Shown: positions 6,831 through 47,666 of the stretch, piece by piece | How positions within the stretch are numbered: the first letter of the stretch is position 1 | Layout: each line of letters begins with the position of its first letter | Assembly (NCBI GenBank): GCA_000092065.1 | Contig: CP000600.1 | Source of the DNA: Ostreococcus lucimarinus | Taxonomy: Eukaryota | Direction: 5' to 3' (one strand) | Length of the DNA stretch: 64,000 nt | The notes under the pieces: generated by a model | What the model was told of the DNA's origin: nothing | The model's database searches: none | Seen by the model: only the letters and a program-made list of their open reading frames with translations | Position numbers and translations under genes: made by a program

Positions 6831-7916
6831 ATGCGTCGCGCGCTCGAGCGCGCGCTTCGCGAGCGCGCGCGCGATGCCGCGCGCGTCGACGCGCGCGCGG
6901 TGCTCGCGCGATGCGAGGCGTCGAGCGCGCGGGACGCGGCGTCGAGCGCGCGCGCGAGGCTCGCTCGGGCGACGACGACGACGCGCGCGATGGCGAGCGA
7001 CGCGCGCGGGCGCGACGCGGCGGTTCTGGCGTTCGCGCGCGTTCGTGGGTTCGCCGCGAGCGCGCGCGCGGAGACGGAGACGACGTCGACGCGCGACGAC
7101 GAAGGCGACGACGAAGGCGACGGCGACGACGAGACGACGGTGAACTCGAAACGAGAGCAGATGCGAGACGAAAGGAATTTCAACGCGCCCAACGCGCTGT
7201 GCGTGGGCAGAATTGTCGCCGGTCCCGCGCTGGCGTACGGCGTCGCGAGCGGCGCGTCGCCGGAACTCGTGCTCGGCGGCGTCGCGGCGGCGGCGTTTAC
7301 GGATTATTTGGATGGATTTCTCGCGAGACGGTGGAAGCAAGGGACGATTTTGGGGAGTTATCTCGACCCGATCGCGGATAAGGTGTTCGTTGGGTGCGTG
7401 GGGACGGCGTTGGCCTTGGAAGGGTCGCTTCCAGTGTGGCTCGTGGGGTTATTGGTGAGTCGCGACGCGATTCACGTCGTCGGCGGGGCGTGGCGACGCG
7501 CGGGCGCGTTGGGGTGGAAATGGAAAACCGTGGGAGAGTTTTTAGGATTTGACGATAAGCCCGTGAGTCGACCGCCGCCCACTGGAGCGGCCGCGCTCGC
7601 GGGGTTCGATTTTGACGAAGTCGAGCAGCTCGGGTCGAAGCGCGGGGCGCTGAGGCCGCTCTTCATCGGCAAGGTGAATACGGCGCTGCAAATGGCGCTC
7701 ATCACGTTCGCCGTGAGCGAACCAGTGTTCGCGGCGCATGCAGGATCGCCGATGATGGCGCCCGCGCTCGAGCTCGTAGCTGATAGAACAGTGCGCGTCA
7801 TTCTGGAATACGCCACGGCGGCGTCCGCCGTCGTCGCCACGGCTGAGTACACTCGCATCTTTCTCGCTCATCCCGGTTTCGACGCGGACGGGCAAATTAA
7901 AGTGAGGAAAAAGTAA
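6831..7916 (+). CDS. CDP-alcohol phosphatidyltransferase (cardiolipin/PGP synthase-like), likely organelle-targeted
   Basis: CDP-OH phosphotransferase motif [28 protein letters not shown]; multiple TM segments; Arg/Ala-rich presequence-like N-terminus; an alternative start is at the Met near 6990. Confidence 0.65.
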
Positions 7917-10980: not shown

Positions 10981-11422
10981 CGTCGCGTGTAATCGACGCA
11001 TCGCGCCCCCTTTCCATCGCTCGCGCGCGCCGCCGTCTCGTCTCGCGTCGCGCGCCGCGTCGATCGACCCCCCTCGTCGACCGACTCATCGACCGTTAGT
11101 CGTCGGTGCGGTGCAAATCTCATCTCGTCGCGACGGTTCAGGACTCGTCGAACGGATTCGTCAACCGTTCACGGGCCGCGCCCTGTCGCACACCGCGCCG
11201 TCGCCGTCGACGACGACGGCGACGCGCGCGCGCGCGAGCCGCGGACTCTCGGACGGGACGCGTCGCCGTCGCGAGATGGACGCGCGGACGCGCCGCGACG
11301 CCGCGACGCGCGCGCGACGCGAATGCATCGCCCGCGGCCGCGGCGACAACGGCCGCGCGCGCGCGCGCGATGACGCGCGAGGAAGGACGCGCGAGGCGAA
11401 GGGACGGCCGGCGGCGCGCGCG

Positions 11423-17400: not shown

Positions 17401-20400
17401 AATTGTCAAGGAATTGCAGAGGCAATACCGCTTCCGAGCCTCCCTCAGAAGCTTTGGCGTGTTGTCCATGACTGTGTTATACCTGCCCATAGTCCGTATG
17501 TGCCTCCAGGCTTTCGACTGTCTCGAAATAGACGGTATCGAGAGCACGCGTCTAGAACACGACATCGACATCGATTGCGAGAGTACTTCTCATGTGACAA
17601 TCCAGGCGGCGGCGGCGGTTATGTTGGCCATCGTCGGAATCGGTATGCCGATTTACGTCATCTCACAAGTGCGGAAACTTTCAAATACGGGGAAGTTAGA
17701 TGATCCACAAACCATCGACGCATACGGTCCATTCTACGATATATATCGTAGAGAAGATCTTACGTATTCGCACAAATTGGAGATTGCCAGACTTCGACAA
17801 ACGACGGTTCGCTCGAGATCTATTCCTCGCGGTAGCGACGATGAAGACGATCGCGAAGAAACGACGTTTGATACCGAAACTGAGCGTGTCGCTGATGAAA
17901 TTGAAAACGATATCAGACAAGATATTGAGGAACCAAACGAAGGCACTTCGTTGGAAACTACCGATGGACCCACTGACGACGTCGAGCAAGGTGAAGATTT
18001 CAACCCTGAACTCGGGAAGAAGAAAGTTTTTGGTAAAGGAAGAAAGTCAAAAGACGGGCGCTTAGCTCAAGTATTATCTATGAGTAAGTCAATGTTGCAG
18101 CGCACTCCGTCTGCGCAAGCGCGCGAGCGCGTGAAAAAGATGAGCTGGAAAGATCGGTTCTCAGTGTATTACCTCTCGGTGGAATTATGCCAGAAGAGCG
18201 GTGTCATTCTCATGACTTCGCCCTTCATCAGCGCTTCGCCTCTCAGTGGCTGGGGCCTTGTATTCATCCACTGGTTCCTCGGCATTTTCGTCTACATTTG
18301 TCAACCTTGGAGAATAATCACGTTGAGTTTCTTCGGTTTTAAGGTGTCAAATTGTCTGAACAAAGTCGAAACTATGGCGGCGTTCCTGCAAGGTGTGACG
18401 CCCGCCTTGGCGATGATATGGCCAGTTAAGCGAGACGCTGACGGCATCGTGCAGGAAAGTTTCACGCTCGAGATGATGACTGGTCTTATGACTGCCATCA
18501 TCACGGGTTTACTCGCTATTCGCATCATCGTATTCGTCGGGGAACGCGTCGCGGTCAAACGCGCAAAGATGGACATCGACAAGGAACCCGAAGCATGCAT
18601 TGAGATTGTTCGTGAACGACTCGTCGAGATGGCGAAGAAACGTGCGGTCGTGAGCTTGTTCGCGTTCAAGGCAGACTTTGATATAACACGGCGCAAAGCG
18701 CGGGCGAGAATAGAGATCACGCGTCAAGCTATGTTGACTAGAATCGACACTTTGAAGTCGGAGATGGCTAGCACCGAAGGTCAGGGTATCGATTACACGG
18801 AGCAAATCACGGCCTTGTATGAAGTGGCGAATCAGATGGCACATATCGTGAATACCGTTGTACCGATGCCTCCACCTGTTGGGCCTGCTGTAGAGGAGCG
18901 TATAGACGCTCTCGAGGCGCAGTTGTCGAAACTTTCCGTGGCCGAGGACGAACGCTACGTCGCCGCACGACAAGAGTCAGAGCCGTCGCCGAACGCTGCG
19001 GCAATGCACATAATTTTCAAGGTGCACATCGTCGATTGCATCGTTGCACAAGTCAACGAACAGCTTGAAGTATACGCGAGTGCAGAGTTAGTGAGCGATT
19101 TAGCCGTTCTTGGACGACGACATGCCGAGTTGTTGAGCGAGCAGAGCGCCATAACTTCTCAATTCGGCGACTCCGAGCTTCGTGCAACTTCAGACGAGTT
19201 ATCTTCATCAGCCGTTCCGTTACTAGAAGCGAACGAACGTGATGACTTCGAAAAGGTATCTTCCACGCTCCATCACTGTGCGAGCGTCATCGATGCGCAC
19301 GCGCAGTGGTGTATGACGCAGAGCGAGCTGTTCAGTGGCCTCAAGAGGGAGCACCCTACTTTCCTTCCGGACGAACCACCATTGACAACGGAGTGCTTCG
19401 AATCGTGCATCAAAGATCTGAAGACACATGAAAAGCAGATGGAGTTAGTTAGGACGCAGTGCATCAGCGACTGGCTTCCAATGTTCAAACATTTCGGTTG
19501 CGTCAAGTATCTCAGAGGGTTCGCCGAGCAGATTCGTAATCAACTCAGTCTCAATCTCAATGGAGAGATCACGCCAGAAGAAGCCAAGGTGGTGTATGAT
19601 GACACCGTTGCCTTCATGGATGGCTTCGCCTCGTGGTGTGCAGATTTGTGTGGCATAATCGAAACGTCAGACGTTTTCAATGAGTTTCAACCCATCGCCT
19701 CGGCCATGATGAAGAGCCTGAAGGTGATACAGATCGACGCTAAGAAGCAAAGCATGCTCGCTCAAAAAGTACTGTCGGCCGTCGACTATGCTTTGGCGCA
19801 GAAGTCCACCGCAGAGGCCGTGCGAAATAATTTGCAGCAGGCGTTGCGCGATTTAACGTCGAAAATGGAGGAGCATCTTGCCGTTCAGATGGATGAAATG
19901 AAGAATGAGAAGATCGCTCTCGAGAGAGCGTATGAAGAAGAAAAGGTGCAAACCGAGGAGGACATCAACGTCCTCGAGAAAACGTTCGCTGAGAGAAAGG
20001 CCACGATGGAGCGCGAATTTGCACTGCAGCGCGACATAGTCGAACGATTACTCGTCATGAAGCAAGAAGAGAAGGCCGCGGTCGCTCCGTCTTTGAACCC
20101 ATTCAGACGCGTACGCTTCGAGTACGAAAACGAGCTCGCGAGCGCCAATAAGGAGTGCCTCAGGATCTCACGAGCCTTGGAGAGAGAAGAGAACGTGAAA
20201 AATATGCAGTGTGAAAACTTGCTTCGAGCGATGCAGCAAACCGAGCGTCAGCTGCGAGCGCAGATTAAAATCCACGATTCACTCATGGCAAAGATGGAAG
20301 CCGATGTCTTGGATCACCTCAAAAAGCAAGGCAACGTGGCGCAAAAGCGAACGGCTCACGATATCGCGGCGAACAAGGCCGTGCTCGCGTCGCGAAAAGC

Positions 20401-20683
20401 CATCTATAAGCAGCAACGTATCGCTGCACAGCTGTACGTATCCGTAGAACGCGAGACTACGAGAGCTCAAGTCGGTCTCACGAGAACGAAACTTGCGGTG
20501 GCTAAACGTAAAGGGCTGCTTGTACGCACAACCTCGCGCCTGACGGGAAAATCCCTGCGGTCAAAATCGCGAAAGAAAGCGCACGACGAAAACGAGACGG
20601 TCAAAGACGATCAACAAGAAAAGGAGGTTGAAGATCAAACCGCGGTTGATGAAAAAAGCAACGTCACGGAGACGAAGACGTAA
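11423..20683 (+). CDS. Giant DUF285-repeat transmembrane coiled-coil protein (about 3086 aa from the predicted signal peptide)
   Basis: - Signal-peptide-like start: [35 protein letters not shown].
- About 50 tandem 25-27 aa repeats of consensus [25 protein letters not shown] (DUF285, Mycoplasma-type).
- Three cysteine-rich inserts: [45 protein letters not shown]...
- Pro-rich linker [12 protein letters not shown] near 16450.
- Cys-rich module from about 16500 to 16900.
- About 7-8 TM helices from about 16930 to 18550.
- Long Glu/Lys-rich coiled coil from about 18600 to 20683.
- ORF 11111..20683 was trimmed to the Met of the signal peptide. Confidence 0.75.
11930..15470 (+). repeat. Three tandem 1.1-1.25 kb near-identical coding units inside the giant gene (units start near 11930, 13040 and 14290)
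   Basis: Each unit restarts with FK(N/D)[15 protein letters not shown](A/V)[10 protein letters not shown] and contains the same Cys-rich insert. The antisense ORFs 12170..12766, 13241..13657 and 14534..15031 translate to almost identical peptides, and so do 12295..12942, 13399..14121 and 14659..15393, which shows near-identity at nucleotide level. Units A and C share GGHTACT/GGDTACT-type variants against B. Confidence 0.7.
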
Positions 20684-29403: not shown

Positions 29404-30762
29404 ATGCCGCGCGCGGTCGTCGACGCGCGCGCGACGACGCGAATCGGACGCGCGACGGAGTACCGGACGCGACGCGCGACGGCGCGCGCGACGACGGAGG
29501 CGACGCGCGTGGCGGTGGTCGGCGGCGGGTTCGCGGGCGTCGCCGCGGCGTTTCGGACGCTCGAGGAGGCGAACGCGCGGGGACGCGCGGTCGAGCTGAC
29601 GCTGATCGACGGCGCGGGCGTCGGGGGCGGGGCGTCCGGCGTCGCGGCGGGACTGCTGCATCCGTACACGCCGCGAGGGAAGACGATCTGGCGAGGCGAG
29701 GAGGGCGCGGCGAGGGCGAGGCGGTTGCTCGACGCGGCGGCGCGCGCGGAGGACGCGATGGACGCGATGGGCGCCGAAAGGAGCGATGACGCGGACGGGG
29801 GGTGGCGGGACGACGCGGGGAGGAACACGGGGGAGCGGCGGGGCGAGCGCGTGGCGAGCGCGCCGGGAATCGTGCGACCGGCGAGGTCGGCGAAGCAGGG
29901 GAGGGATTTCGCGGCGAACGCGGGACGCGGGGACGACGACGACGACGCGGCGTTCGCGGTGAAGCGCGTGACGACGGACGAGGTCGTCGCGATGTGTCCG
30001 GGGTTGGAGTTCACGAGCGACGTCATCGAGGCGGAGAGGAACGGCGAGGCGTGCGCCGGCGGGATGTTCGTTCCGAACGGCGTCGTCGTGGACGCGCCGA
30101 GATATTTAACCGCGCTCTGGGACGCGTGCGGCATACTCGCGTCGCGCGGCGCGGCGGGCACGCGCGCGACGTTGCGCATCGCCGAGGTCGACGATGTGAA
30201 GGCGCTGTTGGATGAATTCGATCAAGTGGCGCTGTGTTGCGGCGCCGGCGTCGCCGCGCTCTTTGACTTTGAAACGATCCCGGTGTCGTTGCAAGGCGGG
30301 CACGTGCTCGAGCTCAAGCCCGAGGGCCTGAGCGTGGGCATTTTAGGCACCACGTACGTCGCACCGCTCGGCGACGATCGCGCCATGATCGGTCCGACGA
30401 AAGAGTACGACGCCACGCCCGAGGATTGCGCTCGCTCTGGCGTCGTGGACGACGTCGACGACGAACGATCCGCGCGCGCGATTTCAGAGCTTCGCGAGCT
30501 CGGCGCGCGCGCGTACCCGCCGTGCGCGAATTGGGAATTCTTGCGTCTCAAGTACGGCGTGCGCGCCAATCCACCGCGCACGCACGCCGGCGCGCTTCCG
30601 CTCGCGGGATCCGTCCACGTGGACGGCCGCCGATGTTGGTTCGCCGCCGGCCTCGGCGCGCGCGGTCTCATCTACCACGGCCTTCTCGCCGACTGGCTCT
30701 CGAGCGCGATTCTAGACGACGACATAAACGCCATACCCGTAGACGTCCGTCGGACGTGTTAG
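29404..30762 (+). CDS. FAD-dependent oxidoreductase (DAO/glycine-oxidase-like family)
   Basis: Rossmann dinucleotide motif VAVVGGGFAGVAAAF, followed by GLLHPYTP. C-terminal WFAAGLGARGLIYHG is typical of DAO-family enzymes. Confidence 0.6.
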   Translation: MPRAVVDARATTRIGRATEYRTRRATARATTEATRVAVVGGGFAGVAAAFRTLEEANARGRAVELTLIDGAGVGGGASGVAAGLLHPYTPRGKTIWRGEEGAARARRLLDAAARAEDAMDAMGAERSDDADGGWRDDAGRNTGERRGERVASAPGIVRPARSAKQGRDFAANAGRGDDDDDAAFAVKRVTTDEVVAMCPGLEFTSDVIEAERNGEACAGGMFVPNGVVVDAPRYLTALWDACGILASRGAAGTRATLRIAEVDDVKALLDEFDQVALCCGAGVAALFDFETIPVSLQGGHVLELKPEGLSVGILGTTYVAPLGDDRAMIGPTKEYDATPEDCARSGVVDDVDDERSARAISELRELGARAYPPCANWEFLRLKYGVRANPPRTHAGALPLAGSVHVDGRRCWFAAGLGARGLIYHGLLADWLSSAILDDDINAIPVDVRRTC

Positions 30763-30835
30763 CGACGTGTGATTCACCGCAGTCGAACCGCGTCCCGCTC
30801 GCGCTCGCCGCACTTCGCGTCCCGCGTCCCCGATC

Positions 30836-31507
30836 ATGCGCGTCCACGCCGTGCGCCTCGACCCCGGTCAGGACTTGAAGCGGTCCCTGTTGGAGTACTG
30901 CAGCGCGCAGAACCTCGCCAGCGCGTGGATTCTCACCGCCGTCGGCTCTCTGCGCGCCGCCAACATCCGCTTGGCCCACCACGACAAGTTTCTCGGCGCC
31001 GGCGCGAACGCCGTCCTGGCGCTTCCCGATCAAAAGTTTGAGATCTGCTCGCTCGTCGGAACGATATCGCGCGCGGGCGCGAGCTGTCACCTGCACGTCT
31101 CGCTCGCGGACAGGCGAGGGGACTGCGTCGGGGGACACGTGCTGGAGGGCAACGTCGTGTTCACGACGTGCGAAATCGTGCTCGGAAGCTCGTCGACGAT
31201 GGCGTTCGATCGCGAGCTGGACGAGAGGACCGGATTCGATGAGCTCGTGGTGCGAGAGGCGGGCGCGGGGGCGGAGACGGGGGCGGGAGAGACGAGAGGA
31301 AAGACGGCGCGAAGAGCGCGACAGTTACGAGCGGAGGCTCGCGAACGCGAGCTTCGCGCGGCGGCGGGGGAACGCGAGCGGGCGCGAGGGTTGTTCGAGT
31401 GGTTAGTGAAGGTCATCGTGCCGAAACCTGGTGCGAGGCGCGCGGAGTCTGATGAAGAAGAGGAGGGGGAGGAGGAGGAAGGCGCGGCGGCGGACGCGCC
31501 GCGATGA
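30836..31507 (+). CDS. PPC/DUF296 domain protein (AHL-like) with acidic C-terminus
   Basis: PPC pattern MRVHAVRLDPGQDL..AWILTAVGSL..FEICSLVGTIS..HLHVSLAD..GGHVLEGNVVFTTCEIVLG. Confidence 0.65.
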   Translation: MRVHAVRLDPGQDLKRSLLEYCSAQNLASAWILTAVGSLRAANIRLAHHDKFLGAGANAVLALPDQKFEICSLVGTISRAGASCHLHVSLADRRGDCVGGHVLEGNVVFTTCEIVLGSSSTMAFDRELDERTGFDELVVREAGAGAETGAGETRGKTARRARQLRAEARERELRAAAGERERARGLFEWLVKVIVPKPGARRAESDEEEEGEEEEGAAADAPR

Positions 31508-31610
31508 AAAAGTTGTAACAGTGAATGAAATGTGATGATGCTTACACGGTGGTGACCTCTATTGGTACAATCGAAATCTCTTCTACTAAACAATCCGTTC
31601 CTTTCGTTCT
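31508..31610. terminator. Shared convergent 3' region with TGTAA poly(A)-signal-like motifs on both strands
   Basis: aaagttgtaacagtg on the + strand just after the PPC-gene stop. ccgtgtaagcatc on the - strand just after the FtsH stop. TGTAA is the chlorophyte poly(A) signal from established knowledge. Confidence 0.4.
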
Positions 31611-34058
31611 TTAAGTCGCGAGTGGAAACGCCGGACTGGGCTCGTCGTCCTCCGGCTCGTCCGTATCCGCGGGTTCGTCCTCTGGCGCCGTTGCCGTCTT
31701 CGGATAGTGCATTTTGAAGCCTTCGTTCAAAATATCAATGTTTTGCGGGTTTTCAGACACGAAGGGTCGATCGCCGAGAAGTTTAACTAAATCGTGGCGC
31801 TGCAAAACCTCCTTGTCGAGTAAGCCTTGCGCCATGGCTTCGACGAGGTGCTTCTTCTCCTTCACGAGCGCCAACGTGCGCTTGTACGCGGTGTCGACGA
31901 GCAGGCGAACCTCTTCATCGATCATTCTCGCCGTGTCCTCAGAATACGGCGACTTCAAGCTTTGCTCGTCTTTGGGGAACGAAAGCAACCCGATCTTCTC
32001 GTTCATGCCATACACGGCCACGGTGTTGTACGCCATTTGCGTGACCTTTTCCAAATCGTTTTGCGCCCCGGTGGAAATCTTTCCGAGCATGACTTGCTCC
32101 GCGGCGCGGCCTCCGAGCGTCATGCACATCATATCGATCAGCTGCTGCGTCGTGGCGAGAAGGTTCTCGTTCGGCAGATACTGCGCGAAGCCTAGAGCCG
32201 CGGAACCGCGCGGAACGATGGACACTTTGAGCAAAGGCTCAGCGTGTTCCAAAAACCACCCCACGACGGCGTGTCCGGCTTCGTGATACGCCACCGTGCG
32301 ACGCTCCGTCTTGTTCACAACCTTCGACTTCTTCTCCAAACCCGCGATGACGCGATCGGCGGCGTACTCGAAGTGTGTGAGAGTTACCGTGGTCATGTTA
32401 TCACGCGCCGCGGCGAGCGCAGCTTCGTTGCACATGTTCGCGATGTCCGCCCCGGCGAAGCCGGGCGTCAACGCGGCGAGACGTTCACTGTAGTGATCCA
32501 CTGGTCCGTCCAAGGCAATCTTGGCCAGATGCACGCGGAATATTTGTTCGCGACCTTGAATATCGGGACGATCGACGGTGATCTGACGATCGAATCGACC
32601 GGGACGCAGGAGCGCCCTGTCGAGAATATCCGGTCTGTTCGTACCCGCCAACACGATGACGCCCTCCTTGGTACCGAAACCGTCCATCTCAACCAAAAGC
32701 TGATTCAACGTGTTTTCGCGCTCATCGTTGCCTCCTGCGAAGCCACCGCGACCACGTTGACGACCGATGGCGTCGATTTCGTCGATGAAAATGATGGACG
32801 GCTTCTGCTGACGCGCTTGGGCAAACAAATCGCGAACTCGCGACGGGCCGACGCCGACAAACATCTCCATGAAATCCGACCCAGAAATGGAAAGAAACGG
32901 GACCCCAGCCTCGCCCGCGGTGGCTTTCGCGAGAAGCGTCTTTCCCGTCCCCGGCGGTCCGACGAGAAGCGCGCCGTGGGGAATTTTCGCGCCCAGGGCT
33001 TCGTATTTCTTCGGACTCTTCAAAAAGTCAACAAACTCCATAATCTCGCGCTTCGCCTCGTCGCAACCGGCGACGTCTTTGAACATAACTTTATTCTTCG
33101 CGTTCTTGTCCAAAGTCGACACCGTCGCCTTACCGACGTTAAAGATCCCACCGGCGCCGCCGCCCATGCCGCCGCCCATGCCTCCCATACCCGCGCTTCG
33201 ACGAGTGAAATACAACCATCCCCCGATCAACAAGAGCGTCGGCAACAGCCGCATCAATTCCGTCTGCAAAAATATTTCATTGACGTACGTCACCGGCACA
33301 AAATCTTTTGACTCTTGCCCGTTCAGCTCTTGCGCTTCTTCCAACTTGCGCTCGAACGAATCCAAGCTTCCGATGTTGAAATAAAACTTGTACCCTCCCT
33401 CCGTCTTCGCCCCCGGCGGCGCCCCGATGTCGCTCGAATCGTACTCATCGCCCGCGCCGTGCCGGCTTCGAATCATCGCTCCCGGCGCCTTCACGTACAC
33501 CTTGGCTTGACTCTTATTCGACACCTCCACGCGTTCCACCAGCCCGGGCTCCAGCAGTTTCGTCTTAAACTCTTGAAACGAAATCTCCCTCGCGTCGCTC
33601 CGCGTCGCGCTCAGCAAGCTCATCGCCACCGCCAGCATCGCCAAGCTCGCGATCTGTTGTCCACTCGGTCCTCGCATCAGCTCTGCCAGCGTCTTCGGCG
33701 CTTCCGCGCCTTCTTTCGCGCCATCCTTCGCGCGTCCGCCCTCGCCCTCGCCGCCCTTCGCCTTCGCGTTCGTCCCTTTCCCGCGCGGTTTCATCGCCGC
33801 AAACTTCCCTTTCGTCCCCTGCGCCTTCGCGGACGCGTTCGCGCCTTTCCCCGCGTTCGCCGCGAATCCTCGCATCGCGACGCGCGTCGCCAGCGTCGCC
33901 GCGGTCGCGGTTTTCGCGTCGAACGGCTTGGCGAATCCATTCGTTTTCGCGACGTTCGCGACGTCGCGCGTCGCGCGCGCGACGCGCGCGACGTCCGCGC
34001 GGGCGAGCGCGCGCGAGGTTTCTCGCGCGAGCGTTCGGAGCAGCGCGCGACGACCCAT
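31611..34058 (-). CDS. FTSH: FtsH-type ATP-dependent zinc metalloprotease (m-AAA family)
   Basis: AAA Walker [18 protein letters not shown]. Walker [12 protein letters not shown]. Zinc-binding HEAGHAV. N-terminal TM domain and FtsH extracellular-like region. ATG confirmed. Confidence 0.9.
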
Positions 34059-34184
34059 GGCGGGAGTCGTCGGCGCGGACGGGCGCGGAATGACGACGAT
34101 GACGCGATGACGTGTCCAGAGGCGTCGCCGAGCGCGGCGAGCGGCGGAGCGGGCGAACGACGCGAGGGCCGTGGGAAGGGTGGA

Positions 34185-36770
34185 TTACAAGGGTAAAGAA
34201 CCGTCACCGGAGGTCAAAGCGGAGACGAATCGAGAGGCGTCGACGATGGGCACGGCGAGATCGCGCGCCTTGGCGAGCTTGGATGGACCGGCGCCGACGC
34301 CGGCGACGACGAGGGCGGTTTTGCGGGAGAGCGTCGAGGCGACGTCGCCGCCGGCGGCGCGGATGAGGTCGTGGACGTCGTCGCGGGAGAAGCCGTCGAT
34401 GGTGCCGGTGAAGAGGATTTTCATGCCACGGAGATCGGCGGTGGGCTCGGGAGATGGGACCGTCGGCGATGGGGTGGGCGACACAGACGACGACGACGCG
34501 GGTTCGGCGAATCGCGGAGACGGTTGATTCTTTGATGACGACGCGTCGGCGTCGAGGACGACGACGCCCGTGGCGATGATTTCATCCACGATGAACGCGT
34601 TGCCGGGCTCGCCCCAAAAGTCGACCAAAGATTGCGCGAGGACGGGACCGACCCCGTCGACGTGCGTCAACGCGGCGTGCGCTAAACTCGCCGGACCGCC
34701 CTTGGCGGCGGCGAGGGCGGCTTTTTTGAACGCGGCCAAACTCCCATAGTGCGTCGCGAGGACTTTTGCGGTGTGTGCGCCGATATTCGGAATGCCGAGA
34801 GCGTAGATGAATCGGTGCAAAGGCACGCCCTGGCGTCGCACTTCGATGGCTTGGAACAACTTGACAGCGCTCTGTTTCAAGCCGTCGGAACCATGTTTGA
34901 TCTCACCCTTGGAGTTTTTCACACCGGCGTATCGCCACCACGTCGGAACGGCGTCACCGCTATCCGGACCGAATCTTCGCTCGAGTGTGAAGATGTCAGC
35001 TGGCGTCTTTACCACACCTTCGCGATGCAGCGTCTCGAGCGTGCCGCGCGCCAACCCGCGAATATCCAGCGCGTCTCTCGCGCAAAAGTGCAACAGGCGT
35101 TCCATCGATTGCGAAGGACACTTCAAGCCACCAGTGCATCGCACGATAGAGCCCATCGCGGTTTTCGACGCCGAAAGAGGCGCGCGCACGACGGATGATC
35201 CGCAATCTGGGCACTTGGACGGAGGGAGCCATTCTGGGAGCGGCTTGATGTCTTCGGCGTACGCCGAAGCCTCGGCGAGATCATCACCAGCGAGCGAGAC
35301 GACGCGGGGAATGACATCGCCCGCGCGTTCAACGGTGACTTGTGCGCCCACCTTGAGATGTTTACGAGCGATTTCATCAAAGTTGTGCAATGTCGCCCGC
35401 GAGATGGATGCGCCGCCGATGTCGACGGGATCGAGCAACGCCACGGGCGTCAGCGCGCCCGTGCGCCCGACCTGAATTTCGATGGCGCGAAGCGTCGTCA
35501 CGGCGCTCATCGCTGTGAATTTATGCGCTATCGCCCATCGAGGTTGCCTCGCATCCGCGCCGAGCGCGGTTTGAAGTTCGACCGAGTTGACCTTGTACAC
35601 GACGCCGTCTATCTCGTACGGCATCGTCGGGCGAGCTATTTCTAAAGCATCGTACGCCTCGATGAGCTCGCCGATGGTTTTCGCCACGCCTAAAAATGGT
35701 ACGGCGTCAAAGCCTTGCGCTGGCAAGAACGCACTCAAGAACTCGCTCTGCGTCCGCCACGGAGCGTTTGTCTCCTCGTTTGACGCGCCGACGGCGCCCC
35801 AACCGTACGCCAAAAAACGCAACGGCATTTGATTATCGTCGACGACGAGCGTTCGCATCGCTCCCGCCGCGGCGTTCCGAGCGTTTTTGAAGACGCGCAA
35901 ACCAGTCGCCGCGCGCTCGGCGTTCACTCGTTGAAAATCTTCATCGGCCACGTGCACTTCGCCGCGAATCTCCAACACCGCCGGGTACGGCTCCGCCAAC
36001 TTCATCGGCACGCCCCGAGCGCCGATGAGGTGTCGCGTGACGTCTTCTCCCATCTCACCGTCCCCTCTCGACACCGCGTACACCAACTCACCGTTCTCGT
36101 ATCGCAAGCTCGCGGAGGCGCCGTCGACTTTCGGCTCGGCGCAATATTCAATCGCCGTCGTCGTCGCGGCCTCGCCCTCCGTCTCCCCTCTCAACTTCTC
36201 AACGCGCTTCATGAACGCCTCCACCTGCCCCACGTCGAACGCATTCCCCAACGACCGCATCGGAACCGCGTGCGCGATCTTTTCCAGCCCACTCGCTCCG
36301 TCCGGCGTCGCCCCCACGCGCGCGCGAGCGCCGCCCGCCTTCGCCGCCGTCGGATGCGCCGCCGCGATCGCATCGTACCTCGCCCGCATCCCATCGTACT
36401 CCGAATCGCTTATCACCGGTTCCGCGTCGTTGTAATACTTTCCATCGTGCATCGCGAGCTCGGCGTCCAATCGAGCCAACTCGCGCGCCGCCTCGCTCGC
36501 GCTCAACCGCTCGACGCCGTTCGCCGCGAACCCGCGCGTCGTCCCTCGTCCGCTCGCGCTCGCGCCTCCGTCCCCTCCCCGCGCGCGCCGCGCCTCTCCA
36601 TCGTCCACGTCATCGCTTCGCGCGTCACCGATCGCGCGCGCGCGCGCGCCGGCGCGGTAACGCGCGCGTCTCGTTCGAATCGAATCGGCGCGCGGCGTCC
36701 CGAGTTCGCGTCGCTCGCACCGCGCGCGCGCCGCCGGGACCGCGCTCGCCGCGCGCGCGCCCGCCGGCAT
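34185..36770 (-). CDS. ligA: NAD+-dependent DNA ligase (bacterial LigA type) with BRCT domain and organellar presequence
   Basis: Ia domain (LARLDAELAMHDGKYY..ISDSEYD). Adenylation KxDG (CAEPKVDGAS). RGDGEMGEDVT. Cys4 zinc finger (CPDCGS..CTGGLKCP). HhH region. C-terminal BRCT (MKILFTGTIDGFSRDDVHDLIRAAGG). ORF 34185..37433 was trimmed to MPAGARAASAVPAARA; the alternative Met MRRRALGASVA lies about 60 nt upstream. Confidence 0.8.
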   Translation of the reverse strand: MPAGARAASAVPAARARCERRELGTPRADSIRTRRARYRAGARARAIGDARSDDVDDGEARRARGGDGGASASGRGTTRGFAANGVERLSASEAARELARLDAELAMHDGKYYNDAEPVISDSEYDGMRARYDAIAAAHPTAAKAGGARARVGATPDGASGLEKIAHAVPMRSLGNAFDVGQVEAFMKRVEKLRGETEGEAATTTAIEYCAEPKVDGASASLRYENGELVYAVSRGDGEMGEDVTRHLIGARGVPMKLAEPYPAVLEIRGEVHVADEDFQRVNAERAATGLRVFKNARNAAAGAMRTLVVDDNQMPLRFLAYGWGAVGASNEETNAPWRTQSEFLSAFLPAQGFDAVPFLGVAKTIGELIEAYDALEIARPTMPYEIDGVVYKVNSVELQTALGADARQPRWAIAHKFTAMSAVTTLRAIEIQVGRTGALTPVALLDPVDIGGASISRATLHNFDEIARKHLKVGAQVTVERAGDVIPRVVSLAGDDLAEASAYAEDIKPLPEWLPPSKCPDCGSSVVRAPLSASKTAMGSIVRCTGGLKCPSQSMERLLHFCARDALDIRGLARGTLETLHREGVVKTPADIFTLERRFGPDSGDAVPTWWRYAGVKNSKGEIKHGSDGLKQSAVKLFQAIEVRRQGVPLHRFIYALGIPNIGAHTAKVLATHYGSLAAFKKAALAAAKGGPASLAHAALTHVDGVGPVLAQSLVDFWGEPGNAFIVDEIIATGVVVLDADASSSKNQPSPRFAEPASSSSVSPTPSPTVPSPEPTADLRGMKILFTGTIDGFSRDDVHDLIRAAGGDVASTLSRKTALVVAGVGAGPSKLAKARDLAVPIVDASRFVSALTSGDGSLPL

Positions 36771-37058
36771 CGCGCGCCACGCCTCGATCGCGCGCGCGAC
36801 GCTCGCGCCGAGCGCGCGTCGTCGCATGCACGACGCGAAGTGCCGCACTCGATGCCGCGCGACGTCGCGTCGTCGGCGTCGTCGCGCGCCGCGGCGAAGA
36901 ACCGCGCCAAGCGCAAGCGCGCGAGGCTGCCGCCGCCGCCCGCCGCGCGCGCGGACGCCCGGGATGACGACGCGCGCGCGGACGAGAGCGGCGAGGATGA
37001 CGACGCGGTCGTCGCGCGCGCGGGCGCGTTCGGACGATACGGCGCCGCCGACGGCGCG

Positions 37059-37559
37059 ATGTCGCGCGCGGACGACGAGTGGGCGACGAGCGAGCGCACG
37101 TGGGCGTCGCTGTTCGGCGTGCTCGAGCGGAACGGGTACGCGAAGAAGAAATTGTGGGCGCCGTTCGTGTACGACGGCGACGCGGGACGGCGGATGCGAA
37201 GCGCGGGATTCGAACGCGTGGTGCACAGACGGGCGGATTTCTTTGAACGCGTGCGAGACGGCGTGTTCGTGCGGTCGCTGGATGCGGTGGTGGATAATCC
37301 GCCGTACACGGGGAAAGGGATGAAGGAACGGATATTGAAGGCGCTGCGAGACGCGGAGGTGCCGTTTTGTTTGTTGCTGCCGCTGGGAGTGTTGCACGCG
37401 GCGTTCGTGAGGGACATTCTGGAGGAGACGCACGTGCAGGTGATCGTGCCGAGGAAGTGTTACGTGTTCAAGAAGGGAGGGACGGAGGTGCCGTTTAAGT
37501 TTTTGTGCTGGTTGTGCTATAAGATGGAGCTGAAGCGCGACTTGTACTTCATAGACTGA
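37059..37559 (+). CDS. Short ORF with DNPPY amino-methyltransferase motif IV (truncated or atypical N6-adenine/N4-cytosine or HemK-like MTase)
   Basis: VRSLDAVVDNPPYTGKG resembles motif IV of beta-class DNA amino-MTases preceded by GDA...; no FxGxG SAM motif in about 166 aa. The ORF frame extends upstream to a Met near 36850 (MPRDVASS). Divergent from ligA. Confidence 0.4.
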   Translation: MSRADDEWATSERTWASLFGVLERNGYAKKKLWAPFVYDGDAGRRMRSAGFERVVHRRADFFERVRDGVFVRSLDAVVDNPPYTGKGMKERILKALRDAEVPFCLLLPLGVLHAAFVRDILEETHVQVIVPRKCYVFKKGGTEVPFKFLCWLCYKMELKRDLYFID

Positions 37560-45080: not shown

Positions 45081-47666
45081 TCATGCGTCAGCGACGACGA
45101 CGGACGAACCCGCGCTCGTTGGGCTACTAGACACGCTAGACACGCTCGCGACGCTCGAGCACGTCGTGGACGATGCGAAGGTGAAGAAGGAGGTGAGCGA
45201 ACTCGTCGGGCTGAGCGCGATGGATGAAGCGTCTGAATCAGGAACAGTTTTGAGGGCTTGCGACGTCACAGATCCGCGCACGATCTCGTTCGCTTTGTGA
45301 ATTGACTCCTTCAATCGTTGCGCGCGAACGCGCTGTTCCGCGACCGTGACTGGATCCTCCGAGGTAAGCCCGATCGCGGCGCGGTACGCCGCGACGGCAC
45401 TCTCGGCGGCGGTTCTGGACCTTCGCAGCTTGGATTTCTGAGACTTGTACTTCCGCATCGCGGAATCATGTGTGTGTTGCGCGGCATCAACATCATTCGA
45501 TAGAGCATTGTGCTCATCTACTGCATTCGCGAGCGTCGTCTTGAGTTTTGTGAGAGCGTTTGATAATTCTGCCGCGCGTTCGCGCATACGCACCAACGCA
45601 TCGTTCTCGGTTTGTAGTTTCTCCAACGCTGCCTCGGTTTTCATCCATTCCTCACGCGAAGCGCCTTTAACATCTTTCGTGGGATGCACGAGCTTCGCGC
45701 GAAGACTCGAATTCGAAAGTTCGGCGTCTTCGAGGATTTGACGCATCGATTCAACTTCACACTCGGCGGAATGGATAAGCCCACTCAACTCCTTGCGCTC
45801 GACTACGAGCTCATCGCGCTGCCGTTCTATGATGGCATAGATGTCTTTTTGTTCGTCGATTGCCACGCCTTCCCCGTACGGCGACTTCGCTCGAACGACA
45901 TCGTAACGGCTTCGTAAGTGGTCGAGACGCTGCTCGCGATGGTTCAAATCCATTATCGCCGCGTGTGCGTCTTGCTGCAGGGTCGTGAGATGCGCCAACA
46001 GCGACCTGTGTTCGTCGCTCAGTGATTCATACTGAGTCTCAAGCTCACCGATTATCTGCTTCTTGCGATCGGTGAGCTCTTGAGCCTGCCCTGAGCTTAA
46101 GAAGAGTACGCGATGACGACGAGCGAGCTGCAAACGTAACTCGTCGAGCTCGACTTGTAAATATTCCATGCCATCGAGTACGCTTCGCTCGTGTCTCTCG
46201 CTTCCCTCCGCTTCGACCTCTAGAGTGCTTCTCGCGTGCGCGGCGTTCAACGTCTGCTCGCATCGCGCGTCCATCTCTAACCTGGTGCGCTCGACCTTGT
46301 ACTCGTTCTCCTTGGTTTCAGCGACGAGAGCGACGTGTTCGCGCTCACGTTCTTCCAGCTCGAGCCTCAACGATTCAATCAGAGCTTCCAGCTTTTCGCT
46401 TTCTTCATTCGATCGTACGCCTTCCAATCGCGACGTCTTGCGTTCGAGATGCTGCAGCTGCAACGACGTGGTGTAAATCAACTCGCGCTGCTTGAGAATC
46501 TTCGCCTGCAAAGCGTGCTCCTTTTCGCGCAAGTTTTTGCTCTGCATCATCGCCCCATTTAGCTCCACTTCTAGTCGACACTGGGAATTCTTTTGATCGT
46601 GCAGTGTTTTTGAGACGTCGAGTAAATCATCTTTATCGCGCTCGAGCGCGGTTTGCACGTCCCGCAGCGTCGATTCTTCTTGGTCGTGGGCTTCTTGTAA
46701 TTCTCGCAAGCAGCGCTCTGACGTCATCAAAGCCGCGCATTCGTCGTCCAACGTCTTTTGTGCCTTGTTGACCTGGCGTGACTTTTCATCTCGAGCGTAA
46801 CAGTGCGCCTTGAGCGTCTCTTCGGCTTCGCACCGGCGTGCTTTCGCGCATTCGGCTCCGCGAGCCGCCGCGCGCCGCATGTGCGTCGCGGTCTCGAGAG
46901 CCTGCGTCGAGCTCGTGAGATCGGATTTGAGCGCTTGACATTTTTCGGTTTTACGGCGTAAAAGTTGCTCCTTCACCGTGACTTTCGACTGTGATGCTTT
47001 ATTCAAAAGCTCTATGCGTTTCGCCGTTTCCTTGAGCTCGCGCAAGTTGGCTTGTTTGTCCTCGAGCGCCGTTGACGTCTGATCCTTCACGCGCATCGTC
47101 CGCTTGATCAATCCTTGCCGATCGCTCAGCGTGACGTTTGCCTTTGCAAGCTCTTCGTTCAACTCAATCTGTCTCGCGTGGGCGTCTTTTAACGACTTTT
47201 GAACGCGTTGCAATTCTCCCGCTAGCGCAGCGCGCGTCGACGCCGCGTCCTCGGCGTCTGATTGACTTTTATGCACTTCGTGCGAAACCTTGCTCAAAGC
47301 CGCCTCGAGCGTCTTCAAAACGCGGTCGTCTTCCGCTTCGTACTCGCGAAGCGCGTCCAAGTCACGTTCTTCGTCAGCGAGGCGGTCGTGAACGATGTCG
47401 CGAACGACGTCGGCGTTCTCCGTTCGCAGTCGCAATCGACTCAGCGCTCGCTCGTACGCCTCAGCGCGCCTTGAGTACTCATCGAATCGCTCGTTCTGCG
47501 TCGTAGTAAGCTTTTCGTACCGCGCGCGAGCGCTCACCGCGCGCTCACGATTGGCTCGATCCAGGAGCGCTAAATGTTTTTCGCTCTCCAACGCCTCGCG
47601 CGCGCCTCGCGCGCGCTCGCGCACGCCATCCATCTCCTTCATCACCTCGCGCGCGTGTTCGCGCAT
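45081..47666 (-). CDS. Coiled-coil protein (about 861 aa), Ser-rich C-terminal tail
   Basis: Continuous heptad-like Glu/Arg/Leu/Ala/Lys-rich sequence throughout; Ser/Thr-rich end. Confidence 0.7.
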   Translation of the reverse strand: MREHAREVMKEMDGVRERARGAREALESEKHLALLDRANRERAVSARARYEKLTTTQNERFDEYSRRAEAYERALSRLRLRTENADVVRDIVHDRLADEERDLDALREYEAEDDRVLKTLEAALSKVSHEVHKSQSDAEDAASTRAALAGELQRVQKSLKDAHARQIELNEELAKANVTLSDRQGLIKRTMRVKDQTSTALEDKQANLRELKETAKRIELLNKASQSKVTVKEQLLRRKTEKCQALKSDLTSSTQALETATHMRRAAARGAECAKARRCEAEETLKAHCYARDEKSRQVNKAQKTLDDECAALMTSERCLRELQEAHDQEESTLRDVQTALERDKDDLLDVSKTLHDQKNSQCRLEVELNGAMMQSKNLREKEHALQAKILKQRELIYTTSLQLQHLERKTSRLEGVRSNEESEKLEALIESLRLELEEREREHVALVAETKENEYKVERTRLEMDARCEQTLNAAHARSTLEVEAEGSERHERSVLDGMEYLQVELDELRLQLARRHRVLFLSSGQAQELTDRKKQIIGELETQYESLSDEHRSLLAHLTTLQQDAHAAIMDLNHREQRLDHLRSRYDVVRAKSPYGEGVAIDEQKDIYAIIERQRDELVVERKELSGLIHSAECEVESMRQILEDAELSNSSLRAKLVHPTKDVKGASREEWMKTEAALEKLQTENDALVRMRERAAELSNALTKLKTTLANAVDEHNALSNDVDAAQHTHDSAMRKYKSQKSKLRRSRTAAESAVAAYRAAIGLTSEDPVTVAEQRVRAQRLKESIHKANEIVRGSVTSQALKTVPDSDASSIALSPTSSLTSFFTFASSTTCSSVASVSSVSSSPTSAGSSVVVADA

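What the first reader, a model, noticed from the sequence alone, without database searches (positions are those of the whole stretch)
34185..36770. Complete bacterial-type NAD+-dependent DNA ligase (LigA) in a eukaryotic nuclear context, with organellar presequence
All LigA modules are present: Ia, KxDG adenylation, OB, Cys4 zinc finger, HhH and BRCT. There is a low-complexity Ser/Pro insertion before BRCT and an Arg/Ala-rich N-terminal extension typical of plastid or mitochondrial transit peptides. Eukaryotes normally use ATP-dependent ligases. A LigA here implies endosymbiotic or horizontal origin and probable organelle DNA replication or repair. It sits next to organelle-type FtsH and near plastid-type RNase E.
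Basis: partly seen in the sequence, partly recalled or inferred. Interest (0 to 1): 0.6.

Follow-up and report, generated by a model that had tools for sequence, protein, structure and literature searches.

The report
Bacterial-type NAD+ DNA ligase in picoalga
A tiny marine green alga of the Ostreococcus group carries in its nuclear genome an intact bacterial-style (NAD+-dependent) DNA ligase with an added import-signal-like front end, probably for mitochondrial or plastid DNA; the gene was already catalogued but has never been studied experimentally.

Summary
A single uninterrupted ORF on the minus strand (stop 34185-34187) encodes a full LigA: domain Ia, KxDG adenylation domain, OB fold, Cys4 zinc finger, HhH and BRCT. 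Every catalytic residue known from E. coli LigA is kept.

The gene is a long-standing nuclear resident, not contamination. Its codon usage matches its neighbours. The block LigA-FtsH-PCC-DAO recurs in Ostreococcus-, Bathycoccus- and Micromonas-like contigs.

The algal proteins form one clade (97-98% NJ bootstrap). It groups with Alphaproteobacteria against beta/gamma/Firmicutes (99.8%). No named cyanobacterial LigA could be fetched, so that comparison was not made.

All orthologues carry a 54-145 aa basic N-terminal extension that bacteria lack. Here it ends in RGF|AA, a -3R mitochondrial processing motif. In this window only the mitochondrial AFG3-type FtsH and cardiolipin synthase share it. 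Import into mitochondria, possibly also plastids, is inferred, not shown.

It is not new. Ostreococcus LigA appears in a 2009 published tree, Micromonas and O. mediterraneus entries are annotated, and Paulinella has organelle-targeted nuclear LigA copies. Interest is modest.

The parts
34185..36827 (-). LigA gene: single-exon CDS of 880 codons plus stop (stop 34185-34187; ATG at 36825-36827)
36516..36827 (-). N-terminal extension (aa 1-104), Arg/Ala-rich, absent from bacterial LigA; putative organellar presequence
36522..36536 (-). RGFAA (aa 98-102): candidate -3R mitochondrial processing peptidase site, RGF|AA. Cleavage there would leave a mature N-terminus close in length to that of bacterial LigA
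36294..36506 (-). Domain Ia (NMN-binding); Y131, D141, Y144, D145 match E. coli Y22, D32, Y35, D36
35511..36290 (-). Nucleotidyltransferase (adenylation) domain, aa 180-439; motif I EPKVDG with adenylation lysine K233 (nt 36129-36131)
35292..35498 (-). OB-fold domain, aa 444-512
35115..35216 (-). Cys4 zinc finger (C539, C542, C564, C570) with 21 residues between the second and third Cys (bacterial norm 14; Hyphomicrobiales type 20)
34560..35102 (-). Helix-hairpin-helix domain, aa ~576-756
34887..34979 (-). Insertion in the HhH domain specific to the algal clade (aa ~617-647, GPDSGDAVPTWWRYAGVKNSKGEIKHGSDGL); absent from all bacterial LigAs and from the other eukaryotic LigAs compared
34437..34550 (-). 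Ser/Pro-rich low-complexity linker before BRCT (aa ~760-797), predicted disordered; length and sequence vary between orthologues
34230..34433 (-). BRCT domain, aa 799-866
31611..34058 (-). Neighbour: AFG3-type (mitochondrial m-AAA) FtsH, 126 nt downstream of LigA. Syntenic with LigA across Mamiellales; its presequence carries RGFAAN at aa 63-68
36852..37559 (+). Neighbour: divergently transcribed 235-aa protein of unknown function (DNPPY motif); its ATG lies 24 nt from the LigA ATG

Best explanation
This is a functional NAD+-dependent DNA ligase (LigA) encoded in the nuclear genome of an Ostreococcus-group green alga.

Origin (inferred). It descends from an alphaproteobacterial-type ligA acquired once by an ancestor of the Mamiellales (Ostreococcus, Bathycoccus, Micromonas). 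It has since been fully adapted to the host genome. Along the way it gained an N-terminal targeting extension, a loop insertion in the HhH domain and a disordered Ser/Pro linker before BRCT.

Chemistry (inferred from conserved residues and fold). Domain Ia positions the NMN moiety of NAD+. K233 attacks NAD+ to form ligase-AMP. The AMP is passed to the 5'-phosphate at a nick held by the OB, Zn and HhH clamp. The 3'-OH then seals the nick.

Cellular role (inferred). The precursor is imported into an organelle, most probably the mitochondrion and possibly the plastid as well. The presequence is removed at or near RGF|AA. The mature enzyme seals Okazaki-fragment and repair nicks in organelle DNA. 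This would supply the organellar ligase activity for which no candidate was predicted in O. lucimarinus.
For: Identity and integrity.
- Full-length match to the LigA equivalog (610 bits), with all Pfam domains.
- E. coli LigA alignment: K115, D117, G118, R136, E173, R200, R208, R277, D285, K290, R308, K314, R333, T334, R379, V383, I384, the four Zn cysteines, and Ia residues Y22, D32, Y35 and D36 are all identical. H23 is replaced by Y, as in most relatives.
- AF2 model pLDDT 81.5; best PDB matches are LigA structures (2owo E 8e-56, TMt 0.72).

Nuclear resident under selection.
- Contiguous with eukaryote-type genes.
- GC3 0.75 and RSCU correlation 0.93 with neighbours.
- LigA-FtsH-PCC-DAO synteny in L166, L164 (GC 48%, Bathycoccus-like) and L165.
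- The 90%-identity cluster contains an MMETSP transcript.

Origin.
- The named best hits in the word-indexed search are Alphaproteobacteria, mostly Hyphomicrobiales, or unclassified Pseudomonadota MAGs. In the exhaustive search, the only two top bacterial representatives whose clusters carry a name are a Hyphomicrobiales and a Pseudomonadota MAG.
- The plasmid tblastn ranks alpha above beta/gamma, then Actinobacteria and Firmicutes.
- NJ bootstrap is 97-98% for the algal clade and 99.8% for (alpha + eukaryotes) against (beta, gamma, Firmicutes).
- The low-GC Bathycoccus-like sequence also has alphaproteobacterial nearest neighbours, so this is not a GC artefact.

Targeting.
- An extension is present in essentially all orthologues (54-145 aa) and is poorly conserved.
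- The first 20 residues are basic and hydrophobic, with 0-1 acidic residues.
- RGFA[AS] occurs in frame only three times in the window, each inside an N-terminal extension: LigA, AFG3-FtsH and cardiolipin synthase.
- Two of the three FtsH orthologues examined keep an R-x-F-[AS]-A motif at the equivalent place; the Micromonas-like one has RAFCA instead.
- LigA orthologues carry RGFAA, RGFSA or RRFAG.
- The motif equals the published -3R MPP consensus RX(F/Y/L)|(A/S) (PMC4986872).
- The O. lucimarinus LIG1 was predicted to have no organellar targeting (PMC4166229 Table 1).
- Precedent: Paulinella has nuclear LigA copies with mitochondrial and chromatophore targeting peptides (PMC9450145).
Against: - No localisation experiment and no dedicated predictor (TargetP, PredAlgo) could be run.
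- The RGFAA observation is post hoc and rests on three proteins.
- The same motif class is also seen in dual-targeted plant proteins.
- The 100-aa presequence holds an acidic stretch (DARSDDVDDGE), which is atypical.
- The motif lies at aa ~50 in some orthologues and is absent from others (P0002, P0166).
- The M. pusilla CCMP1545 model has an uncharged Thr/Ala/Pro-rich N-terminus that looks more plastid-like.
- Hydrophobic-moment analysis did not discriminate.
- The phylogeny is NJ only and contains no cyanobacterial sequence retrieved by name. The position inside or beside Alphaproteobacteria is unresolved (backbone support below 10%).
- NAD+ dependence and activity are inferred from sequence alone.
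Confidence: 0.55

Rival explanations
1. The ligase is imported only into the plastid and serves chloroplast DNA replication and repair. The identity of the plastid ligase is unclear even in plants.
For: Green-algal transit peptides resemble mitochondrial presequences. The M. pusilla CCMP1545 N-terminus (MPPATATATTARAPAAAALASA...) is uncharged and hydroxyl/Ala-rich, which is plastid-like. The plastid ligase is called 'unclear' in PMC4166229 and PMC3914683. A plastid-type RNase E lies in the same syntenic block, which is weak evidence.
Against: Most orthologues start MRRR/MRRS and have several Arg in the first residues. From my own knowledge of plant import signals, several Arg at the extreme N-terminus disfavour plastid import; this was not tested here. 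The window protein shares the RGF|AA motif with two hallmark mitochondrial proteins and not with the RNase E N-terminus. Affinity is alphaproteobacterial rather than cyanobacterial, although ancestry does not dictate destination.
Confidence: 0.15
2. The enzyme stays in the nucleus or cytosol as an auxiliary repair ligase backing up ATP-dependent LIG1. This would resemble the laterally acquired LigN of Haloferax volcanii.
For: Haloferax uses a laterally acquired NAD+ ligase as backup (PMC7470946). The BRCT domain and Arg-rich N-terminus could in principle mediate nuclear interactions.
Against: The extension has no classical Lys/Arg-cluster NLS, whereas the neighbouring 235-aa protein does (KNRAKRKRARL). 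Extensions are retained in all lineages but diverge fast, as targeting peptides do. A candidate MPP site is present. O. lucimarinus otherwise lacks a predicted organellar ligase.
Confidence: 0.12
3. The gene is not a lineage-specific horizontal transfer. It is a relic of the mitochondrial ancestor's own ligA, retained in a few eukaryote lineages (Mamiellales, chrysophytes such as Mallomonas, Paulinella) and lost elsewhere.
For: All eukaryotic LigAs recovered in the top hits are alpha-like: Paulinella P0274, Mallomonas P0357, P0346 and P0296. The algal clade groups with the Mallomonas group at 69% bootstrap. Several carry R-x-[FY]-[AS] motifs in N-terminal extensions. The Paulinella mtTP copy is classed as 'Eukaryotic' in origin in PMC9450145.
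Against: Monophyly of all eukaryotic sequences has 0.4% bootstrap. The HhH insertion that marks the algal clade is absent from the other eukaryotic LigAs. This reading requires very many independent losses, including in all other Viridiplantae. The 69% grouping joins long branches in an NJ tree. The search was seeded with the algal protein, which biases recovery toward alpha-like sequences. In Yutin and Koonin's legend the Dictyostelium LigA is listed beside Leptotrichia and Borrelia, not beside Ostreococcus.
Confidence: 0.15
4. The ORF is bacterial contamination or a mis-assembly in the window.
For: LigA is a typical bacterial gene. At least one public metagenome protein (P0011) is a bacterial/algal LigA chimera.
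Against: It is flanked on both sides, within 24-126 nt, by eukaryote-type genes. Codon usage is host-like. The same neighbourhood occurs in three other Mamiellales-type contigs. Eukaryote-specific extension and linker are present. Identity to any bacterium is at most about 43%.
Confidence: 0.01

Closest known systems
Bacterial replicative NAD+-dependent DNA ligase LigA (E. coli LigA, PDB 2OWO/5TT5; alphaproteobacterial LigA of Hyphomicrobiales type)
   Same: Same six-module architecture (Ia, NTase, OB, Zn, HhH, BRCT). All catalytic and NMN-binding residues are conserved. About 36% identity to E. coli and 40-43% to Hyphomicrobiales. The predicted fold matches 2owo. The lengthened Zn-finger loop sits at the same site as in Hyphomicrobiales LigA.
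   Different: Nuclear-encoded in a eukaryote. It has a ~104-aa N-terminal extension, a ~30-aa insertion in the HhH domain unique to the algal clade, and a disordered Ser/Pro linker before BRCT. E. coli HhH residues R487 and G489 are not conserved at the aligned positions.
Ostreococcus lucimarinus, O. mediterraneus and Micromonas pusilla 'DNA ligase (NAD(+))' entries (Yutin and Koonin 2009 Fig. 1; UniRef A0A7S0PKE7, C1MVF8 / XP_003060031)
   Same: Orthologues within one clade (97-98% bootstrap), 72% (O. mediterraneus cluster representative) and 43% (M. pusilla cluster representative) identical. They share the HhH insertion and, where contig context could be examined, the synteny with AFG3-FtsH and the PCC gene.
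   Different: This is a different species or strain. Nothing functional has been published for any of them. The organelle-replication survey that included O. lucimarinus listed only LIG1.
Nuclear-encoded LigA copies of Paulinella micropora with chromatophore (crTP) or mitochondrial (mtTP) targeting peptides (PMC9450145)
   Same: A bacterial-type NAD+ ligase encoded in a eukaryotic nucleus, with N-terminal targeting sequences, proposed to serve organelle DNA replication. The copy retrieved here (P0274) is also alpha-like.
   Different: Different eukaryotic supergroup. It does not share the Mamiellales HhH insertion and does not cluster with the algal clade. Paulinella targeting was predicted by dedicated tools and supported by diurnal expression.
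Dual-targeted ATP-dependent DNA ligase 1 of plants and red algae (AtLIG1, CmLIG1)
   Same: Proposed functional analogue: the ligase that seals nicks in organelle DNA, delivered by an N-terminal presequence.
   Different: Unrelated cofactor class (ATP), different domain set and eukaryotic ancestry. Isoforms arise from alternative start codons.
Haloferax volcanii LigN and NCLDV (mimivirus, entomopoxvirus) NAD+ ligases
   Same: Examples of LigA outside Bacteria, acquired laterally.
   Different: Different donors; the NCLDV clade groups with gammaproteobacteria and phage in Yutin and Koonin. No targeting extension. No viral relative above 43% identity was found in IMG/VR.

Membership tests
NAD+-dependent DNA ligase LigA (EC 6.5.1.2) | Nucleotidyltransferase domain with motif I KxDG adenylation lysine and motifs III-V | tested here: met
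   EPK233VDG. D235, G236, R254, E290, R317, R325, R399, D407, K412 and K436 align to the essential E. coli residues. Pfam PF01653 scores 228 bits.
NAD+-dependent DNA ligase LigA (EC 6.5.1.2) | N-terminal domain Ia with NMN-contacting residues (E. coli Y22, H23, D32, Y35, D36), which distinguishes NAD+ from ATP ligases | tested here: met
   Y131, Y132 (H to Y, as in most relatives), D141, Y144 and D145. PF22745 Nlig-Ia is precomputed for the near-identical protein.
NAD+-dependent DNA ligase LigA (EC 6.5.1.2) | OB fold, Cys4 zinc finger, four-HhH domain and C-terminal BRCT in this order | tested here: met
   Pfam OB, ZBD (sub-threshold because of the loop insertion, but all four Cys align), HHH_2 and BRCT. 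Full-length equivalog NF005932 scores 610 bits against a cut-off of 369. The AF2 model matches 2owo.
NAD+-dependent DNA ligase LigA (EC 6.5.1.2) | Nick-sealing activity dependent on NAD+ and not ATP | not testable with these tools
   Requires recombinant enzyme assays. Inferred from the conserved Ia and NTase residues.
Nuclear-encoded, mitochondrion-imported matrix protein | Cleavable N-terminal presequence: basic, few acidic residues, with an MPP site RX(F/Y/L)|(A/S) | tested here: inconclusive
   An extension is present in all orthologues. RGF|AA is shared with AFG3-FtsH and cardiolipin synthase in the window, and two of the three FtsH orthologues examined keep an R-x-F-[AS]-A motif. Against this, there is an acidic stretch, the motif position varies, hydrophobic moment does not discriminate, and no predictor was available.
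Nuclear-encoded, mitochondrion-imported matrix protein | Experimentally shown location in mitochondria | not testable with these tools
   Needs GFP fusion, fractionation or proteomics.
Plastid-targeted protein of cyanobacterial (EGT) origin | Phylogenetic nesting within cyanobacteria and presence across Archaeplastida | tested here: inconclusive
   The named best bacterial hits are alphaproteobacterial or unclassified Pseudomonadota. The split of alpha + algae against the other bacteria has 99.8% bootstrap. No plant, other green-algal, red-algal or glaucophyte orthologue was identified among the named members of the 150 best representatives of an exhaustive search; most of those representatives carry no name. 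However, no cyanobacterial LigA could be retrieved by name for the tree, so formal exclusion is pending.
Giant-virus (NCLDV) NAD+ ligase clade | Close relationship to viral LigA | tested here: not met
   The best IMG/VR matches are at most 43% identical and look bacterial or phage-like. Contigs of giant-virus size match at 24-28%. In the published tree the NCLDV clade belongs to a mostly gammaproteobacterial/phage branch, and the legend lists Ostreococcus elsewhere, next to Rickettsia.

The most novel reading that the evidence does not exclude
The Mamiellales LigA, together with the alpha-like LigAs of Mallomonas, Paulinella and unnamed protists, is a surviving piece of the proto-mitochondrial bacterial replisome. 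On this reading, an endosymbiont-derived NAD+ ligase still seals mitochondrial DNA in scattered eukaryote lineages, much like the rdxPolA polymerases recently traced to the proto-mitochondrion.
Probability: 0.15. Interest if true: 0.6.

Novelty: already known. Interest (0 to 1): 0.3.

Why it matters
Reviews still state that NAD+-dependent ligases are absent from eukaryotes, and they use this to justify LigA as an antibacterial target (PMC7470946).

The Mamiellales are among the most abundant marine picoeukaryotes. They are a clear, conserved exception.

If the enzyme is the organellar ligase, three things follow:
- It fills a gap in the published inventory of organelle replication enzymes for Ostreococcus, where LIG1 had no predicted organellar targeting.
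- It gives a second example, besides Paulinella, of a bacterial ligase recruited to an organelle.
- It offers a selective chemical handle, in the form of existing LigA inhibitors, on organelle DNA maintenance in a transformable model alga.

The gene's presence, annotation and rough phylogenetic position are already public. What remains open is the function.

Tried and rejected
1. Contamination or mis-assembly was rejected on synteny, flanking genes and codon usage.

2. Giant-virus origin: the IMG/VR scan found nothing above 43% identity.

3. P0011 looked like a 61%-identical bacterial relative and a possible donor. It is a chimeric metagenome ORF, with an alphaproteobacterial N-terminal 300 aa fused to an Ostreococcus-type C-terminus at the conserved PRWAIAHKF block.

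4. Hydrophobic-moment and composition analysis of the N-termini, meant to separate mitochondrial from plastid signals, did not discriminate. A nuclear SET protein scored as high as the mitochondrial controls.

5. The Zn-finger loop insertion was tested as a shared derived character with Hyphomicrobiales. It is suggestive: 20 residues between the second and third Cys in Hyphomicrobiales, 21 in Ostreococcus, 14 in 90 of 127 bacterial representatives. It is weakened because the Bathycoccus-like protein has 15 and Micromonas has 24-77.

6. Monophyly of all eukaryotic LigAs was not supported (0.4% bootstrap).

7. Attempts to obtain a named cyanobacterial LigA failed. The genome-contig scan returned mostly beta and alpha, and the plasmid tblastn listing showed none.

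8. The divergent 235-aa neighbour had no Pfam or PDB hit, and the single-sequence AF2 model was useless (pLDDT 43).

9. Only NJ trees with Kimura-corrected distances could be built. No ML software was available.
Full report
**The observation**

The minus strand carries one uninterrupted reading frame ending at the stop codon 34185-34187.

Pfam finds these domains:
- NAD-ligase adenylation domain, aa 180-439, 228 bits
- OB fold, aa 444-512
- C4 zinc-binding domain, aa 538-571, 21 bits, just under the cut-off
- HHH_2, aa 672-744
- BRCT, aa 799-866

The NCBIfam LigA equivalog PRK07956 matches aa 116-870 at 610 bits against a cut-off of 369. The Nlig-Ia family is precomputed for the near-identical metagenome protein.

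The protein was aligned to E. coli LigA.
- Identical: the adenylation lysine (K233 in EPKVDG), D235, G236, R254, E290, R317, R325, R399, D407, K412, K436, the OB residues R455, T456, R501, V505 and I506, the four zinc cysteines (539, 542, 564, 570), and the NMN-binding residues of domain Ia (Y131, D141, Y144, D145).
- H23 is Tyr, as in most relatives.

An AlphaFold2 model built on a 14-sequence alignment has mean pLDDT 81.5. Its best PDB matches are LigA structures (2owo, E 8e-56, target TM 0.72).

The Ser/Pro-rich stretch before BRCT (aa ~760-797) is real, variable between orthologues and predicted disordered. About 104 residues precede domain Ia. They are Arg/Ala-rich and have no counterpart in bacterial LigA.

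**Start codon**

A 235-codon gene on the plus strand begins at 36852, only 24 nt from the LigA ATG at 36827. The closest orthologues begin MRRRA..., MRRRV... or MRARAL..., like the 36827 start. The ENA gene call and the JGI/IMG cluster members have the same 880 aa length.

**Nuclear, eukaryotic context**

The window encodes the following:
- WD40, SET, PHD-homeodomain, ankyrin, Rer1, U-box and HlyIII/AdipoR-type proteins
- a cardiolipin synthase
- an FtsH whose best solved relative is human AFG3L2 (661 bits against 493 for bacterial FtsH)

LigA has GC3 0.75, and its synonymous codon usage correlates at 0.93 with that of the other genes, which is indistinguishable from its neighbours.

The order LigA-FtsH-PCC-DAO(-RNase E) recurs on three other contigs:
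- one 76% identical at the LigA protein level (L166)
- a 48%-GC, Bathycoccus-like contig (L164)
- a Micromonas-like contig, with a rearrangement (L165)

The cluster at 90% identity includes an MMETSP transcript. Contamination is excluded, and the gene has been in these genomes since before the genera diverged.

**Who has it**

Named members of the orthologous clusters are Ostreococcus mediterraneus (UniRef A0A7S0PKE7) and Micromonas pusilla CCMP1545 (XP_003060031 / C1MVF8). Both are annotated 'DNA ligase (NAD(+))'.

An exhaustive HMMER search of 1.84 billion representatives was run.
- After the Mamiellales-type sequences it returns only bacterial-looking LigAs.
- It also returns a few other eukaryotic ones: Paulinella micropora, Mallomonas annulata and two unnamed sequences with N-terminal extensions.
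- No plant, other chlorophyte, red-algal or glaucophyte orthologue was identified among the named members of the best 150. Most of those representatives carry no name.

**Origin**

The named bacterial proteins among the best hits are Alphaproteobacteria, mostly Hyphomicrobiales, or unclassified Pseudomonadota MAGs. They are Enterovirga, Chelatococcus, Hyphomicrobium, Methylocystis, Microbaculum and Hyphomicrobiales or Pseudomonadota MAGs, at 40-43% identity. A tblastn against plasmids and chromids ranks alpha (Tistrella 40%) above beta/gamma (34-36%), and these above Actinobacteria and Firmicutes (25-31%).

Neighbour-joining trees gave these results:

| Grouping | Bootstrap |
|---|---|
| Algal clade, 183 sequences | 98% |
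| Algal clade, curated 50-sequence set | 97% |
| (Alphaproteobacteria + all eukaryotic sequences) vs (beta, gamma, Firmicutes) | 99.8% |

The low-GC Bathycoccus-like protein has the same alphaproteobacterial nearest neighbours, so the signal is not a GC or amino-acid composition artefact.

Position within or beside the Alphaproteobacteria is unresolved. The Cys4 loop is lengthened at the same site as in Hyphomicrobiales LigA: 21 residues between the second and third Cys against 20, where most bacteria have 14. This hints at a derived alphaproteobacterial donor. However, the Bathycoccus-like protein has 15 and Micromonas has 24-77, so the character is not clean.

A ~30-residue insertion in the HhH domain (P-x-W-W-x-Y-A-G...K-G) is unique to the algal clade. 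It is absent from bacteria and from the other eukaryotic LigAs.

Monophyly of all eukaryotic LigAs has 0.4% support. The algal clade plus the Mallomonas group has 69%, which could be long-branch attraction.

IMG/VR holds no viral relative above 43% identity. No cyanobacterial LigA could be retrieved by name. A cyanobacterial origin is disfavoured by the hit lists but was not formally tested.

The most economical reading is a single transfer from an alphaproteobacterium into an ancestor of the Mamiellales. Retention from the mitochondrial ancestor remains possible at low probability.

**Targeting**

Orthologues carry extensions of 54-145 residues that diverge too fast to align. Most begin with Met followed by two or three Arg. 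Their first 20 residues hold 3-6 basic residues, 5-7 hydrophobic residues and 0-1 acidic residues.

In the window protein the extension ends with RGF|AANG at aa 98-104. Cleavage there would leave a mature N-terminus about as long as that of bacterial LigA.

RGFA[AS] occurs in frame only three times in the 64 kb, and each time inside an N-terminal extension:
- LigA
- the AFG3-type FtsH (aa 63)
- the cardiolipin synthase (aa 72)

The latter two are hallmark mitochondrial inner-membrane proteins. The six-frame background is 6 hits in 128,000 residues. That predicts about 0.14 hits in the ~3,000 residues of N-terminal regions, so three is unlikely by chance, although the test is post hoc.

Two of the three FtsH orthologues examined keep RGFAAD or RRFSAN at the same place; the Micromonas-like one has RAFCA instead. 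LigA orthologues carry RGFAA, RGFSA or RRFAG. The motif equals the published -3R consensus of the mitochondrial processing peptidase, RX(F/Y/L)|(A/S). The same paper notes a similar motif in dual-targeted proteins (PMC4986872).

Evidence against uniform mitochondrial targeting:
- an acidic stretch within the extension
- variable position or absence of the motif in some orthologues
- a Thr/Ala/Pro-rich, uncharged N-terminus in the M. pusilla model
- no discrimination by hydrophobic moment

**Biological need**

The published inventory of organellar replication enzymes includes O. lucimarinus. It lists only LIG1 (protein 16988), with the TargetP/WoLF PSORT result 'none', and no LigA (PMC4166229 Table 1). 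An organellar ligase is therefore unaccounted for in this genus. An imported LigA would fill that gap.

**Comparison with what is known**

- Yutin and Koonin (2009) already placed the O. lucimarinus NAD+ ligase in their tree. It is listed next to Rickettsia, and they noted that such ligases occur 'sporadically in archaea and eukaryotes' (PMC2806865).
- In Paulinella micropora, nuclear LigA copies with chromatophore and mitochondrial targeting peptides have been described and tied to organelle DNA replication (PMC9450145).
- The 2020 ligase review still speaks of 'absence in eukaryotes' (PMC7470946).
- The 2024 survey of organellar family-A polymerases does not mention DNA ligases.
- I found no paper on the function or location of the Mamiellales enzyme.

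**Verdict**

The gene is an already catalogued member of a known family, in a lineage where its presence was published in 2009.

What this analysis adds:
- a corrected start codon
- proof of long-term nuclear residence through synteny
- alphaproteobacterial affinity that is robust to composition
- clade-specific insertions
- an in-window argument for mitochondrial, or dual, import

Localisation and NAD+-dependent activity remain to be shown experimentally.

Noticed in passing
window 36852-37559 (+); orthologue L166 7120-7926 (-): A 235-aa protein with a DNPPY motif (as in N6-adenine/HemK-type methyltransferases) and a KNRAKRKRARL NLS-like stretch. It is transcribed divergently from LigA with only 24 nt between the two ATGs, and is conserved in the Ostreococcus group. 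It has no Pfam or PDB sequence match, and the single-sequence AlphaFold model was unusable (pLDDT 43).
   Followed up: partly
window 6831-7916 (+), 31611-34058 (-), 34185-36827 (-): The pentapeptide RGFA[AS] occurs in frame only in the N-terminal extensions of cardiolipin synthase, AFG3-type FtsH and LigA. It looks like the local form of the -3R mitochondrial processing site and could be used to mine Mamiellales mitochondrial proteomes.
   Followed up: partly
L082 950-3259 (protein P0011): This public metagenome ORF is a chimera. Its first ~300 aa are alphaproteobacterial LigA (~40% identical to the window protein). The rest is ~90% identical to Ostreococcus LigA. The two parts are joined at the conserved PRWAIAHKF block, an assembly artefact that mimics a bacterial donor.
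   Followed up: yes
proteins P0274 (Paulinella micropora), P0357 (Mallomonas annulata), P0346, P0296: Other eukaryotic LigAs with N-terminal extensions (Paulinella 266 aa, the size of a crTP; Mallomonas with RVFSS). All have alphaproteobacterial nearest neighbours. P0357, P0346 and P0296 form a clade (96% bootstrap). They lack the Mamiellales HhH insertion.
   Followed up: partly
window 29404-37559; L166, L164, L165: The gene block DAO - PCC-domain protein - AFG3 FtsH - LigA (with RNase E/G beyond DAO) is conserved across Ostreococcus-, Bathycoccus- and Micromonas-like contigs. The Micromonas-like contig has local inversions, and the Bathycoccus-like contig has a DcpS gene inserted.
   Followed up: yes
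window 11111-20683 (+): A giant 3190-codon ORF made of at least 14 DUF285 (BspA-like leucine-rich) repeats, Pfam score 1098 bits.
   Followed up: no
window 45081-47666 (-): An 861-aa coiled-coil protein matches the ciliary CCDC39 family over its whole length (81 bits). This is odd if the organism is a non-flagellate Ostreococcus, and it may be generic coiled-coil similarity.
   Followed up: no
window 35829-37559 (+), 36503-37417 (-), 33315-34196 (+) and others: Many long ORFs overlap the real genes in other frames and on the opposite strand. They are a product of the 61-65% GC content and are not genes. Only the last 235 codons of the 576-codon plus-strand ORF are coding.
   Followed up: yes
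protein P0401 (Micromonas pusilla CCMP1545 XP_003060031): The reference gene model of the M. pusilla orthologue starts MPPATATATTARAPAAAALASA..., an uncharged hydroxyl/Ala-rich N-terminus. This is unlike the MRRR starts of the Ostreococcus group. Either the targeting differs or the start-codon annotation does.
   Followed up: no
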